Below are positions 45,876-48,800 of a stretch of 64,000 nucleotides of DNA, piece after piece. Below the pieces are notes generated by a model, which was not told the origin of the DNA, did not search any database, and worked only from the letters and a program-made list of their open reading frames with translations. Both the position numbers and the translations under genes were made by a program. Within the stretch, counting starts at the first letter, position 1, and each line of letters opens with the position of its first letter. Source of the stretch: an uncultured Clostridia bacterium (GTDB taxonomy: Bacteria; Bacillota; Clostridia; TANB77; CAG-508); NCBI GenBank assembly GCA_947594845.1, contig CANQEI010000006.1:2320-66319 (forward strand), written 5' to 3'.

Positions 45876-48800
45876 ATGGAAGTTGAAAAAATTAAAGTAA
45901 TAATTATTTCATGTGTATTAATGTTATTATTTTCATTAAACTGTTATGCTGCTAATACTAATACTATGGAATTGAAAACTAGCAAAACAGAATTAGGTCC
46001 AGGAGATGAATTCACAGTTTCTGTGGACTTTAATTGTGAAGAAACATCTTTATATGCTTATACTGCAAAGTTAAGTTATGATAAGGATGTTTTTGAAGTT
46101 ATAGAAAAAGACGATTTTGAAGAACAAGAAAAATGGTCTGATATAAACTATAACAGTAATAACAATAAATTTGCTTTAATAAATAAATCTGGAGAAAGTG
46201 GTAGCAAAATCTTAAATATAAAATTGAAAGTAAAAGAAGATGCAAAATTAGGAGAAACAACAATTACTATAAGTGGAGCTAATGCATCTGATGGGACTAA
46301 AGATATATCACTTAAAGGTGATTCTTCAGTAATTAGAATTCTTAATGAGAAATCTGAAGGAGAAACTTTACCTCAAAATCCTGTAGATGACGAAAAAATT
46401 GAAAATGATGAAGAAAAAAATTCAATTGATGCTAAAAAAGGTATTAATTGGAAAACTGTAATATGTTTGATTGTATGCATTATCATCATTTTAGTTACAT
46501 TAGGAATATTAATTTCTAATAAAAGAAAAGAAAAAAACAAAATAATAATAATTGTTTTGATTGCAGAAATATTGTTGACTATTTTACTAATAATGATAAT
46601 GAATAGGGATAATAATCATTATGATGTAAATAATGATGGAAAAGTTAATTATAATGATTCTAATGAATTAATAGAATATTTATTAGAAATAAAACAACCA
46701 ACTACTGAAGAATTGGTAGATCTTGATATTAATAATGATGGAAAAGTTGATATAAATGATGTAGGGGAAGTAACAAAAGAGTCACAAAGTAACAATGAAA
46801 CTTCTGGTAAAAATAATCAAGGTTCACAAAATGGTGGAACTAATACTGGTTCTAGTGCTGGAAGTACTGAATCAGGTAGCGAAAATACTGGTTCTACTGG
46901 TAGTGAAGGTGGAAATAATCCAGGCACTGATAATCCACCATCAGGAGATGTAGAAGTACATATTACTAACTCTAAAATTACTAATAAAAATGGTGAAGAA
47001 GTTTATTATGTTGTAAAAGGTGAAAACTTATCAACAACATATACTTTCGAAACTAATTCCAATTTACCAATTAAATATGTAGTAGTAAATGGAAAACAAC
47101 TTCCTGTTACAAGAAATTCTGATGGTTCATATTCTATAAATTTCAATGCCCCAATAGAATATGGCAAAACAAAAGTAGAGATCACAAAGGCAGTATTTGA
47201 AACAATTGGAGAAGTTGATGTTTATTATTCTTTTGAAATTGAAGTTTTAAAATCTGTTAAACCAACAGTTACAAATATAAAGATTAATGATGATGGGGAA
47301 AAACCAGTATTATCATATGATCTAATTGACCCAGAAGATACTTTTGTAAATGGTAAGTTATTAGTAACTAATAAACAAACTGGAGAAACAAAAGAAATTG
47401 AAATAAATGGAGAAAAATCAGAATATGTACTTGATGGCATAGAAGAAAATGCTAAATATGATATAAAAATTGAAGTAAATTATGATTTCGATTCTGATAA
47501 AGAAAATCCAGATAATCAGGGAAAAGAAGTTATAGAAGGTAATCAGTATGAATTGATAAAAGATTATCAGTTTACATTAGATGATTATAAATTAGTTAAT
47601 ATTGATAGAGCTAATAAAGAAATAACTTTACAATTTACAAGTACAAATGTTACTGAAAATAGAAACGAACAAGACAGATATTACATAACTTCTGTTACAA
47701 TAAATAATTGTTCTTACTCTGTTACAAGACAAGGTTCATTATATACAGTTGTAGTTCCTTATGAAGAAGAAAACAAAACTGTATTAGAACTACAAAAAGC
47801 TAAATTAAGTAATTTAAAGGAATTTACTAATATAGGAAAGAGTATAGTTGTATTTAAGACTGCCCCAACAGCTAATGTAAATGTAACAGTAAATGATGAC
47901 TTAAAATTAATTACAGCATCATTTGATTTAGTTGATAATGATTCTACTATTACAGCTTTAGAAGCTAGATTAATAAAACCAAATGGTGAAATAGTTAAAA
48001 AGAATCTAAATATAGGTGAAAATTCTGTAACTTTTGAATCTGCTAATGATGAAATATTTAAAGCAGGTGAGTATGTTGTAGAAATTGGAGCTGATTATGA
48101 ATTAGTTGATGGATTAACTCATAATGAAAAAACTACAATAGGAACAAGTAAAGCTACTGTTAAGACTATTGCTAAAATAGTTGATGCTAATGTACAAAAC
48201 TACTATGTAGAAAAGGGTGCTTCTGTTGAAATTAAATATACAGTTTCATCTAATAATGAAGGTTTACTTTCAATAGTAAATATTGAAGAGGTATCTTATC
48301 CTGCAACACAAAATGCTGACGGAACTTATTCAATTTTTGTACATATTAGTGAAAACGAAGCTTATGGTGCTAAAAAGTATAGACCAACAGTTGTAATGTA
48401 TAATTCAGAAACAGTTATATTAGATGATACAAAAGAAGTAGAATGCTATGTTTTAAAGAGTAAGCCAAATATTGAGAATTTTGTATTTAATGATAAAGTA
48501 AAAGATCAGAATTTAACATTTAAATTTAATAATAATGATAATGCTTTATTAAGTGATGATGCTGGCTTAATTATTGTAGATGAGCAAAATGTAGAAAAAT
48601 TAGAACATAAATTAACTGGAGATAATACAGTTCAGTTAAATTCATTAGAAAATGGAAATTATACAGTAGAACTAAAAGGAACTTATGATTTAGATGATGA
48701 CAAAAATAATGGACAAAATGATCAATATAAGTTAGCTGATATTTTTGAACCAAGACAAATTAGAGTTATTTCAGATTACAAACCAAATGTTCAAATTAGT

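What the first reader, a model, noticed from the sequence alone, without database searches (positions are those of the whole stretch)
45876..46946. Giant protease N-terminus: cohesin-like domain and dockerin-like repeat on the same polypeptide, separated by a two-TM hairpin
The signal peptide (MEVEKIKVIIISCVLMLLFSLNCYA) is followed by a ~135-aa cohesin-like beta-sandwich ('ELGPGDEFTVSVDFNCEETSLYAYTAKLSYDKDVFEVI...ILNIKLKVKEDAKLGETTITISG'). Two hydrophobic helices follow (about nt 46446-46511 and 46539-46598), joined by a basic loop SNKRKEKNK. Next comes a duplicated calcium-loop motif typical of type I dockerins ('DVNNDGKVNYNDSNELIEYLL ... DINNDGKVDINDVGEV', nt 46620-46772), and then a G/S/T/N linker. 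By the positive-inside rule both the cohesin and the dockerin-plus-protease parts would be extracellular, tethered by the hairpin. Pneumococcal Zmp/IgA1 proteases are likewise anchored near their N-terminus (LPXTG plus hydrophobic segments). Cohesin and dockerin in one non-cellulosomal protease suggest head-to-tail self-assembly on the cell surface, or capture of another dockerin/cohesin partner. I know of no such arrangement described for an M26-type protease.
Basis: partly seen in the sequence, partly recalled or inferred. Interest (0 to 1): 0.7.

Follow-up and report, generated by a model that had tools for sequence, protein, structure and literature searches.

The report
Cohesin–hairpin–dockerin head on giant protease
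A 4705-residue surface protease of an uncultured gut Firmicute starts with a real cohesin and a real dockerin (two domains that normally bind each other) joined by a two-helix membrane hairpin; dozens of gut species share this undescribed head, and it may show how this protease family is held on the cell surface.

Summary
Residues 1-357 of the intact 4705-aa ORF (45876-59993) hold a signal peptide, a Pfam-significant cohesin (49 bits), an acidic linker, two TM helices joined by SNKRKEKNK, a Pfam-significant type I dockerin (39 bits) and a G/S/T/N linker. About 3000 aa of Ig-like repeats and an M26 (IgA1-protease/Zmp-like) domain follow.

It is not an assembly artefact. The same head occurs in about 35 species-level genomes, mostly rabbit-gut MAGs, and in 66 of the listed 50%-identity protein clusters, all unnamed. 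Cohesin and dockerin are both under purifying selection.

The hairpin is the known N-terminal hallmark of streptococcal Zmp proteases; the flanking cohesin and dockerin are what is new. A deeper-alignment AlphaFold model (pLDDT 81, pTM 0.73) implies one compact cohesin/hairpin/dockerin unit, which points to self-pairing at the membrane surface rather than long-range head-to-tail chains. No contact map was available.

A rarer 'type B' subfamily keeps LPxTG before TM1 and, in most members, a signal-peptidase-like site after TM2. That suggests sortase and signal peptidase split the polypeptide and cohesin-dockerin binding rejoins it. The window protein ('type A') lacks both signals.

Verdict: a new variant of known kinds, of real interest, with the mechanism inferred.

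The parts
45814..45842 (+). Promoter-like site: TTGACT, 17 nt, TATAAT (11 of 12 matches). An RBS-like AAAGGATGGAG follows at 45860-45870.
   Evidence: (consensus scan only) and the sequence.
45876..59993 (+). Whole gene: one uninterrupted ORF of 4705 aa, apparently monocistronic.
   Evidence: Neighbouring genes are housekeeping.
45876..45950 (+). Signal peptide, aa 1-25, with predicted cleavage at CYA|AN.
   Evidence: Hydropathy. A V-x-A| type site sits at the same position in the homologues examined.
45963..46340 (+). Cohesin domain, aa ~30-155 (Pfam envelope aa 33-145).
   Evidence: Pfam Cohesin 49.2 bits. AF2 beta-sandwich, block pLDDT 78-93. Foldseek 2jh2 and 2vo8, TM 0.80. dN/dS 0.10-0.35.
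46341..46454 (+). Acidic tether, aa 156-193. It contains the family-conserved motif G-E-T-L-P (aa 162-166, nt 46359-46373).
   Evidence: Net charge -5 over aa 146-190. Motif conserved in the alignments. Low pLDDT. Function unexplained.
46455..46514 (+). TM1, aa 194-213, a stop-transfer helix running outside to inside.
   Evidence: It aligns with the C-terminal TM anchor of sortase-anchored stand-alone cohesins.
46515..46541 (+). Cytoplasmic basic loop SNKRKEKNK, aa 214-222, net charge +4.
   Evidence: Sequence. Loops in relatives are mostly +3 to +6. It aligns with the basic tail of stand-alone cohesin anchors.
46542..46601 (+). TM2, aa 223-242, a reverse signal-anchor running inside to outside. 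No signal-peptidase motif follows it in this protein.
   Evidence: In most type-B relatives the equivalent helix ends in a [YFL]-A| site.
46623..46790 (+). Type I dockerin, aa 250-305. Calcium loops at aa 250-261 and 284-295, three helices. It begins 7 residues after TM2.
   Evidence: Pfam Dockerin_1 39.3 bits. PDB type I dockerins are the best sequence matches. Canonical calcium ligands. AF2 pLDDT 81-91. dN/dS 0-0.55.
46791..46946 (+). G/S/T/N-rich low-complexity linker, aa 306-357. It is a candidate wall-spanning segment; relatives have P/T/N/E-rich stretches here.
   Evidence: Composition and alignment. The wall-spanning role is inferred.
46947..55958 (+). Stalk, aa 358-3361: about 3000 aa of repeated Ig-like modules with a period of about 200 aa. 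No Pfam family matches.
   Evidence: It is homologous to the stalks of relatives at 24-30% identity.
55959..59549 (+). M26 (IgA1-protease/Zmp-like) metalloprotease region. M26_N at aa 3362-3597; HETLH at aa 4301-4305 (nt 58776-58790).
   Evidence: Pfam M26_N 68.7 bits. phmmer to 6xjb, 7jgj and 6xja at E about 1e-37 to 3e-38 over aa ~3490-4558. HETLH coordinates.
60000..60034 (.). Terminator-like palindromic hairpin of 16 pairs, immediately after the stop codon.
   Evidence: The scan called it on the minus strand; the stem is palindromic and flanked by A/T runs, so it could act in both directions (my inference).

Best explanation
The first ~305 residues are a conserved surface-anchoring head for a giant fibrillar M26 protease.

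Proposed steps:
1. The signal peptide exports the cohesin.
2. TM1 and the basic loop stop transfer.
3. TM2 re-starts translocation as an uncleaved reverse signal-anchor. The dockerin, a low-complexity (probably wall-spanning) linker, about 3000 aa of Ig-like stalk and the protease all end up outside the cell.
4. The cohesin, on a 30-45-residue acidic tether, and the dockerin, held 1-9 residues from the membrane, bind each other at the outer membrane face. This could be within one molecule or as a swapped pair of neighbours. The result is a compact Ca-dependent base.

Shown here: the domains, the hairpin, conservation across many species, purifying selection on both modules, and homology of the hairpin layout to streptococcal Zmps.

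Inferred: the topology, the cohesin-dockerin pairing and what the pairing is for.

Comparative evidence suggests this 'type A' head derives from, or is sister to, a 'type B' head. In type B the same parts carry LPxTG before TM1 and, in most members, a signal-peptidase-like site after TM2. There the polypeptide would be cut into a wall-linked cohesin and a free dockerin-protease held together by cohesin-dockerin binding.
For: - Domains: Pfam Cohesin and Dockerin_1 both exceed their curated cut-offs. The cohesin fold matches solved cohesins. The calcium ligands are canonical.
- Conservation: about 35 genome loci match aa 1-~310. All have SP, Coh, TM, basic loop, TM, a 1-9 aa gap, then Doc. Among listed representatives, 66 clusters have this order and 32 of them a detectable M26 domain.
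- Selection: dN/dS is 0.10-0.35 for the cohesin and 0-0.55 for the dockerin, against 0.13-1.0 for the linker and hairpin.
- Hairpin: streptococcal Zmps have SP + LPXTG + 2 TM (PMC3518915). TM1 and the basic loop align with the TM and basic tail of sortase-anchored cohesins.
- TM2 uncleaved: no position-conserved small-x-small motif follows TM2 in type A, while a V-x-A| site follows the real signal peptide.
- Pairing: AF2 with a 24-sequence alignment gives pLDDT 81.4 and pTM 0.73 for 285 aa, with all five models at 79.6-81.4. The cohesin is only about 46% of the chain, so two independently placed bodies should give a pTM of about 0.5, as the first run did (0.48).
- Precedent: the dockerin of R. 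bromii Amy4 recognises its own cohesin (PMC4611034).
- Type B: 9 of 93 Coh-TM-TM proteins have LPxTG directly before TM1. The scan finds a [YFL]-A| site in 5 of the 9 and I read a similar motif by eye in the other 4. Pfam confirms Cohesin + Dockerin_1 + M26_N/C in P0091 and P0143.
Against: - No contact map, PAE or coordinates were available, so the cis cohesin-dockerin interface is inferred from pTM alone. AF2 tends to compact tethered domains.
- L027-L029 keep the cohesin but have lost the dockerin's calcium loops. The cohesin may therefore have another partner.
- The same organisms encode other dockerin and cohesin proteins that could be the real partners (L022, L060, L071).
- The flank after TM2 is K/R-rich in many members, which is unusual for a translocated segment.
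- No binding, topology or processing experiment exists for any member.
- The purpose of a cis clasp between two segments that are already membrane-anchored is unclear.
Confidence: 0.55

Rival explanations
1. Hetero-partner model. The two modules do not pair with each other. The cohesin recruits other dockerin-bearing enzymes to the base of the giant protein, giving it a mini-scaffoldin role. Alternatively or additionally, the dockerin plugs the giant into separate wall-anchored cohesins.
For: - Related MAGs encode sortase-anchored single cohesins (26 representative clusters).
- They also have two-gene cassettes in which a dockerin-bearing enzyme sits directly upstream of an anchored cohesin (L060, L071, L047, L053, L022).
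- L027-L029 keep the cohesin without a functional-looking dockerin.
- One MAG has two giants with very similar dockerins (L010 and L019, 72% identity), so cross-binding is plausible.
Against: - The dockerin lies 1-9 residues from the membrane and the cohesin on a short tether. That places both beneath or inside the wall, poorly positioned to reach wall-displayed partners (inference).
- AF2 pTM 0.73 suggests a fixed intramolecular arrangement.
- The 64-kb window has no other cohesin or dockerin.
- The strict co-occurrence and conserved geometry of the two modules are most simply explained if they work as a pair.
Confidence: 0.22
2. Split-and-redock also applies to this type-A protein. The polypeptide is cut after TM2, or in the tether, by a protease other than signal peptidase I, or by the M26 domain itself. 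The released dockerin-stalk-protease then stays on the cell only through the TM1-anchored cohesin, which would allow regulated shedding.
For: - Type-B relatives have LPxTG and, in most, an SPase-like site at the matching positions.
- The proposed streptococcal model includes a second cleavage site S2 (PMC3518915).
- Pneumococcal IgA1 protease is reported in multiple active forms and can be released (review PMC7939560).
- There is a conserved unexplained G-E-[ST]-[LI]-P motif in the tether.
Against: - The window protein, L009, L010, L025 and L026 have no small-x-small candidate after TM2, and no candidate is conserved in position across type A.
- The giant contains no LPxTG anywhere, although the organism makes LPKTG proteins.
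Confidence: 0.13
3. Vestigial or purely structural modules. The cohesin and dockerin folds are kept as spacers or folding aids with no specific protein-protein binding. A more extreme version is that the fusion is an assembly or annotation artefact.
For: - Some members have degenerate dockerins (L027-L029).
- L030 has a frameshift between the cohesin and TM1.
- Many database entries are fragments.
Against: - The artefact version is excluded. The ORF is continuous, and the same order recurs in about 35 independent genome assemblies and 66 protein clusters.
- Both modules are under purifying selection comparable to functional domains.
- The calcium ligands are intact.
- The head is more conserved (38-48% identity) than the stalk (24-30%).
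Confidence: 0.1

Closest known systems
Streptococcal M26 zinc metalloproteases (IgA1 protease/ZmpA, ZmpB, ZmpC, ZmpD)
   Same: - Homologous catalytic region: M26_N 68.7 bits, phmmer E=3e-38 to 6xjb, and an HExxH motif.
- A large repeat region lies between the anchor and the protease.
- The N-terminal anchoring layout is a signal peptide followed by two TM segments (PMC3518915).
   Different: - No LPXTG anywhere, and no G5 domain was detected.
- A full cohesin replaces the short pre-LPXTG segment, and a dockerin directly follows TM2.
- Pfam Peptidase_M26_C is not detected.
- The stalk is far longer, about 3000 aa.
- The host is an uncultured low-GC gut Firmicute, not Streptococcus.
Ruminococcus bromii amylosome enzyme Amy4 (cohesin and dockerin on one enzyme)
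   Same: A gut Firmicute extracellular enzyme that carries both a cohesin and a dockerin. Its dockerin recognises its own cohesin (PMC4611034). The context is non-cellulosomal.
   Different: As I recall, Amy4 is a secreted GH13 amylase whose modules are not separated by a membrane hairpin and which is not itself membrane-anchored. In the present protein the two modules flank a TM hairpin at the N-terminus of a protease.
Clostridium perfringens non-cellulosomal cohesin-dockerin 'toxin complex' modules (NagJ/GH84C and NanJ/GH33 cohesins)
   Same: These are the closest solved structures to this cohesin: 2jh2 and 2vo8 at TM 0.80 and rmsd 2.2-2.7 A, and 2o4e as the best profile hit among cohesins. 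They belong to host-glycan or host-protein-degrading enzymes of a gut Firmicute.
   Different: Sequence identity is only 13-20%. From my own knowledge, the C. perfringens modules link separate secreted glycosidases. Here the cohesin and dockerin lie on one membrane-inserted polypeptide.
Sortase-anchored single-cohesin anchoring proteins (of the SdbA, OlpB or ScaE type; here P0005-P0015 and L039-L073)
   Same: The layout is SP, cohesin, linker, TM, basic tail. TM1 and the basic loop of the giant align with their TM and tail. In L060, L071 and L022 they sit next to genes for dockerin-bearing enzymes.
   Different: They are separate small proteins with LPxTG and long G/N/S or P/T linkers. Their cohesins are only 27-31% identical to type-A cohesins and form a separate clade.

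Membership tests
Cohesin domain (Pfam PF00963) | Profile match above the curated gathering score | tested here: met
   49.2 bits against a cut-off of 24.1, E=8e-13, aa 33-145.
Cohesin domain (Pfam PF00963) | Nine-stranded beta-sandwich (jelly-roll) fold superimposable on solved cohesins | tested here: met
   AF2 block pLDDT 78-93. Foldseek 2jh2 and 2vo8 at TM 0.80 and rmsd 2.2-2.7 A; type I cohesins at TM ~0.64.
Cohesin domain (Pfam PF00963) | Binds a dockerin | not testable with these tools
   Only indirect support: a single-chain AF2 pTM of 0.73. No interface data.
Type I dockerin (Pfam PF00404) | Profile match above the curated gathering score | tested here: met
   39.3 bits against a cut-off of 22.9, E=7.7e-10, aa 249-301. 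The best PDB sequence matches are type I dockerins 4fl4, 2mte and 1daq.
Type I dockerin (Pfam PF00404) | Duplicated 12-residue calcium-binding loop DxNxDGxxxxxD, each followed by a helix | tested here: met
   D250-D261 and D284-D295 have D/N/D/(N,D)/D at positions 1, 3, 5, 9 and 12. AF2 helices at mature residues 234-244, 252-258 and 268-280, pLDDT 81-91.
Type I dockerin (Pfam PF00404) | Usual position at the C-terminus of a secreted enzyme | tested here: not met
   The dockerin is near the N-terminus, 7 residues after a TM helix.
Peptidase family M26 (IgA1-specific metalloendopeptidase / Zmp) | Peptidase_M26_N profile match | tested here: met
   68.7 bits against a cut-off of 27.7, aa ~3362-3597.
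Peptidase family M26 (IgA1-specific metalloendopeptidase / Zmp) | Peptidase_M26_C profile match | tested here: not met
   No Pfam hit at E<=0.01 in the C-terminal pieces. However, phmmer aligns aa ~3490-4558 to pneumococcal IgA1 protease 6xjb at E=3e-38, and type-B relatives do hit M26_C.
Peptidase family M26 (IgA1-specific metalloendopeptidase / Zmp) | HExxH zinc motif | tested here: met
   HETLH at aa 4301. It aligns with HEMTH of 6xjb. The downstream glutamate ligand was not checked rigorously.
Peptidase family M26 (IgA1-specific metalloendopeptidase / Zmp) | N-terminal signal peptide + LPXTG + two TM segments | tested here: not met
   The signal peptide and two TM segments are present, but the protein contains no LPxTG-like motif. 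Type-B relatives meet all three.
Peptidase family M26 (IgA1-specific metalloendopeptidase / Zmp) | Cleaves IgA1 hinge or another host glycoprotein | not testable with these tools
   The substrate is unknown.
Cellulosome / scaffoldin system | A multi-cohesin scaffoldin plus dockerin-bearing plant-polysaccharide hydrolases | tested here: not met
   There is one cohesin and one dockerin on a protease. No glycoside hydrolase or CBM is in the protein, and no other cohesin or dockerin is in the window.
Sortase substrate (LPXTG cell-wall sorting signal) | LPXTG followed by a hydrophobic segment and a basic tail | tested here: not met
   The hydrophobic segment and basic tail are present (TM1 and loop), but LPXTG is absent. 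The same window encodes three bona fide LPKTG signals elsewhere.

The most novel reading that the evidence does not exclude
The cohesin-hairpin-dockerin head is a self-contained 'anchor plus cargo on one polypeptide' device. In its complete (type B) form, one translation product is cut twice: by sortase at LPxTG before TM1, and by signal peptidase after TM2. This yields a peptidoglycan-linked cohesin and a free dockerin-stalk-protease. The two snap back together non-covalently, and the TM hairpin is discarded. This would be a new route of surface-protein biogenesis. It would also offer a concrete model for the puzzle of how an N-terminal LPXTG can retain the C-terminal part of Zmp/IgA1 proteases on the cell. 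The window's type-A protein would be a derived form that keeps the clasp but stays membrane-tethered.
Probability: 0.3. Interest if true: 0.85.

Novelty: new variant of a known kind. Interest (0 to 1): 0.62.

Why it matters
M26/Zmp proteases are major colonisation and virulence factors, for example pneumococcal IgA1 protease, ZmpB and ZmpC. Their unusual N-terminal LPXTG plus two-TM anchor has never been explained mechanistically, because sortase attaches the part upstream of LPXTG, not the protease.

A large, unannotated branch of the family in mammalian gut Firmicutes places a cohesin upstream of the hairpin and a dockerin downstream of it. Where the LPXTG and signal-peptidase sites are retained, that suggests a testable mechanism: cut the chain, then hold the pieces together.

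The finding also extends cohesin-dockerin biology beyond polysaccharide degradation to giant host-facing proteases and adhesin-like fibrils. It provides the first cohesin-dockerin pair I know of that straddles a membrane hairpin. And it offers a compact natural module that could be used for surface display.

Tried and rejected
1. **Assembly error or two genes: rejected.** The ORF is continuous and the architecture recurs in about 35 genomes and 66 clusters. L030's frameshift is an isolated exception.
2. **Stand-alone 'cohesin plus one TM' proteins as ancestral unfused anchors (P0001, P0003 and others): my early reading, now rejected.** They nest beside specific giants in the cohesin tree. By eye, P0001 appears identical to L014 up to the loop. 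All come from 1-2x coverage contigs, so they are fragments.
3. **Signal-peptidase cleavage after TM2 in the window's subfamily: not supported**.
4. **First AF2 run** (18 sequences, only 3 covering the dockerin): pTM 0.48, inconclusive. A second run with N-terminal segments of representative hits was accepted.
5. **Whole-protein Pfam and NCBIfam scans** miss the cohesin and the protease. Scanning in pieces was needed.
6. **Exact look-up of the giant protein** found nothing on record.
7. **The word-indexed protein search** retrieved almost none of the giants. The exhaustive representative search did.
8. **The TM-boundary script was crude.** I use for loop charges.
9. **Literature:** no paper combines cohesin, dockerin and M26.
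Full report
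**1. What is in the sequence**

The finding lies at the start of one uninterrupted ORF, 45876..59993 (+), of 4705 aa. A near-consensus promoter-like site (TTGACT-17-TATAAT) lies at 45814-45842 and an RBS-like AAAGGATGGAG precedes the ATG. A 16-bp palindromic terminator-like hairpin follows the stop at 60000-60034. The flanking genes are housekeeping: alpha-amylase, P-type ATPase, epimerase, VanZ, CYTH, pyrophosphatase, YgjP, UDP-glucose pyrophosphorylase and LigA. The window has 27.5% G+C.

Scanned alone, aa 1-357 hit Pfam Cohesin (49.2 bits against a cut-off of 24.1, aa 33-145) and Dockerin_1 (39.3 bits against 22.9, aa 249-301). Hydropathy finds only three hydrophobic segments in the entire protein: the signal peptide and two segments within aa 187-245. 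From the sequence and the AF2 helices I place TM1 at aa 194-213, the loop SNKRKEKNK (net +4) at aa 214-222 and TM2 at aa 223-242.

The dockerin has two canonical calcium loops, D250-D261 and D284-D295. A G/S/T/N linker follows it. Downstream come about 3000 aa of Ig-like repeats with a period of about 200 aa and no Pfam match. After that comes an M26 protease region: Peptidase_M26_N at 68.7 bits, phmmer E=3e-38 to pneumococcal IgA1 protease 6xjb, and HETLH at aa 4301. The protein has no LPxTG anywhere and no C-terminal sorting signal.

**2. It is a conserved family, not an oddity or an artefact**

A pattern scan of one genome per species found 73 loci. About 35 of them match query aa 1 to ~310, meaning cohesin, hairpin and dockerin together, at 29-54% identity. 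Nearly all are rabbit-gut ('Lapin') MAGs labelled uncultured Clostridia or Bacilli.

In every one the order is the same: signal peptide, cohesin, acidic tether, TM1, a basic loop (mostly net +3 to +6), TM2, a gap of only 1-9 residues, dockerin repeat 1, a spacer and dockerin repeat 2. Most of these ORFs exceed 3600 aa and run off the fetched flank. Whenever the locus reaches far enough, the M26 domain is there.

An exhaustive phmmer search of 1.84 billion cluster representatives gave 789 hits at E<=1e-3. The top hits are giants of 2000-6181 aa that match through their first ~330 residues. Among the listed representatives, 66 have Coh-TM-TM-Doc, and 32 of those have a detectable M26 domain. No source names any of the 8 clusters I checked. 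No paper in the library contains cohesin, dockerin and M26 together.

Some members have the same head and stalk but no protease: L016, L018, L019 and L024, three of which share the same C-terminal end. One MAG has both kinds (L010 and L019).

Both modules are under purifying selection. dN/dS is 0.10-0.35 for the cohesin and 0-0.55 for the dockerin, while the tether and hairpin evolve faster at 0.13-1.0.

**3. Structure**

With a shallow alignment, AF2 modelled the cohesin and the two TM helices but not the dockerin (pLDDT 66.5, pTM 0.48). With 24 sequences the model reached pLDDT 81.4 and pTM 0.73, and all five models agreed. The cohesin has block pLDDT of 78-93. The hairpin helices lie at precursor aa ~192-214 and 220-243. 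The dockerin forms three helices at pLDDT 81-91.

The cohesin superimposes best on the non-cellulosomal C. perfringens cohesins (2jh2 and 2vo8, TM 0.80, rmsd 2.2-2.7 A), followed by type I cohesins from cohesin-dockerin complexes.

The cohesin is only about 46% of the 285-residue chain. A pTM of 0.73 is therefore hard to reach unless the cohesin, hairpin and dockerin are placed confidently relative to each other. This is indirect evidence for a compact cis, or domain-swapped, arrangement. I had no PAE or coordinates, so the interface itself was not seen.

**4. The hairpin is the known part; the cohesin and dockerin are the new part**

Bek-Thomsen et al. (PMC3518915) describe all streptococcal Zmps as a signal peptide, LPXTG and two TM segments. 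[quoted passage not shown] A 2026 proteomics study shows that deleting srtA depletes ZmpB and IgA1 protease (PMC13604702).

In the window's subfamily, which I call type A, the real signal peptide has a position-conserved V-x-A| site. Nothing comparable follows TM2: the window protein, L009, L010, L025 and L026 have no candidate at all. TM2 therefore looks like a permanent anchor in type A.

**5. Type-B relatives**

Nine of 93 Coh-TM-TM proteins carry LPYTG, IPKTG, LPKTG or LPNTG immediately before TM1. They include L037 (Clostridium sp. CAG:389, 2104 aa), P0091 (3001 aa) and P0143 (2251 aa). After TM1 come a K/R-rich loop, TM2 and, 6-10 residues after its end, the dockerin (KGELNxDG...). The scan finds a [YFL]-A| signal-peptidase-like site at the end of TM2 in five of the nine (P0091, P0101, P0104, P0151, L037). 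By eye, the other four have a similar VFA or IYA motif slightly deeper in the helix.

Pfam confirms Cohesin (35 and 32 bits) and Dockerin_1 (35 and 37 bits) in the heads of P0091 and P0143, and M26_N, Glug and M26_C downstream.

This is a complete sortase-anchored cohesin preprotein fused in front of a complete dockerin-protease preprotein. The obvious reading is as follows: sortase links the cohesin to the wall, signal peptidase frees the dockerin-protease, and cohesin-dockerin binding holds the two together. Type-B cohesins form their own clade, and the sortase-anchored stand-alone cohesins form another.

**6. Context in these bacteria**

Related MAGs use cohesin-dockerin pairs for non-cellulosomal surface display. 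In L060 and L071, large NPCBM/F5_F8_type_C proteins with a C-terminal Dockerin_1 are encoded directly upstream of sortase-anchored cohesins. L022 has a similar cassette 3 kb upstream of its giant.

The window holds no other cohesin or dockerin. It does encode three LPKTG-sorted proteins, one of them a VWA/tip-pilin-like protein. The organism therefore uses sortase, even though its giant protease lacks LPXTG.

**7. Mechanism, with levels of support**

- Shown: the domain identities, the hairpin, conservation, selection, and homology to the Zmp layout.
- Inferred with good support: the outside-inside-outside topology, and TM2 remaining uncleaved in type A.
- Inferred with moderate support (about 0.55): the protein's own cohesin and dockerin pair at the outer membrane face, forming a compact Ca-dependent base from which the linker, stalk and protease project. 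The tethers are short (1-9 and 30-45 residues), so cis or nearest-neighbour pairing is far more plausible than extended head-to-tail chains or cell-to-cell contacts.

Counter-evidence: L027-L029 keep the cohesin but have lost the dockerin's calcium loops, and other potential partners exist in these genomes.

**8. Corrections to my own earlier readings**

The 'stand-alone cohesin plus one TM' proteins (P0001, P0003 and others) are fragments of type-A giants from 1-2x coverage contigs, not an ancestral class. L030's split head is a frameshift.

**9. Verdict**

It is a new variant built from known kinds: the M26/Zmp N-terminal hairpin anchor combined with a non-cellulosomal cohesin-dockerin pair. 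A cohesin and a dockerin on one enzyme has a precedent in R. bromii Amy4. The main value lies in the family-wide picture and in the type-B architecture, which makes a long-standing question about Zmp anchoring directly testable.

Noticed in passing
window 19695-20048, 26125-26505, 28345-29799 (also 26758-28326): Three ORFs end in LPKTG plus a hydrophobic tail, which marks them as sortase substrates. The 484-aa one has VWA and GBS104-like tip-pilin Ig domains. The 522-aa ORF just upstream has no Pfam match. This may be a pilus or adhesin cluster, but no sortase gene was seen beside it.
   Followed up: partly
window 46359-46373 (aa G162-P166); the same position in all type-A loci: A conserved linear motif, [ED]-G-[ED]-[ST]-[LI]-P, lies in the otherwise variable acidic tether. 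It sits about 5-10 aa after the cohesin and 25-30 aa before TM1. It resembles the start of an LPxTG signal but lacks the T-G. Its function is unexplained.
   Followed up: partly
L022:1725-6655: A two-gene cassette lies 3 kb upstream of that MAG's giant. The first gene encodes a 1365-aa protein with an N-terminal cohesin-like segment, Listeria-type repeats and a C-terminal dockerin. The second encodes SP, cohesin, a P/T linker, LPKTG and a TM helix.
   Followed up: partly
L060:5236-10780 and L071:3-4303 (also L047, L053): Large NPCBM/F5_F8_type_C proteins with a C-terminal Dockerin_1 (49-56 bits) are encoded directly upstream of sortase-anchored single-cohesin genes. This is a non-cellulosomal 'enzyme-dockerin plus anchored cohesin' cassette in gut Clostridia.
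   Followed up: partly
L027, L028, L029 (N-terminal ~330 aa of the giants): The cohesin and hairpin are intact, but the dockerin is degenerate. The first calcium loop is shortened and the second is replaced by N-rich low-complexity sequence.
   Followed up: partly
L016:6473-14827, L018:1096-11652, L019:113-10663, L024:185-8392: These giant paralogues have the same cohesin-hairpin-dockerin head and stalk repeats but no protease domain. L016, L018 and L019 share a conserved C-terminal end (...IIQVQVQEE). MAG Lapin-032__bin74 has both a protease giant (L010) and a stalk-only giant (L019).
   Followed up: partly
P0018 (474 aa, metagenomic): A type-A-like signal peptide, cohesin and TM helix are fused to an FtsX-type permease domain (PF02687) instead of a hairpin and dockerin.
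   Followed up: no
P0074, P0121, P0123, P0129, P0135 (~1090 aa each): These proteins have 7-8 separate dockerin-like stretches and no cohesin. Such multi-dockerin proteins look unusual.
   Followed up: no
window 46947-55958 (aa 358-3361): About 3000 aa of repeated Ig-like modules, with a super-repeat of about 200 aa, match no Pfam family. The same unannotated repeat type builds the stalks of all relatives at 24-30% identity.
   Followed up: partly
L030:6090-6720: A frameshift in the acidic tether splits the head into a 181-aa cohesin ORF (= P0017) and a >3500-aa ORF that starts before TM1. This is probably an assembly indel or a pseudogene.
   Followed up: yes
window 35957-37354 and 24650-25117: These ORFs of 465 aa and 155 aa have no Pfam match at the thresholds used.
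   Followed up: no
window 21524-21599: A single tRNA-Thr (CGT) is the only tRNA gene in the window.
   Followed up: no
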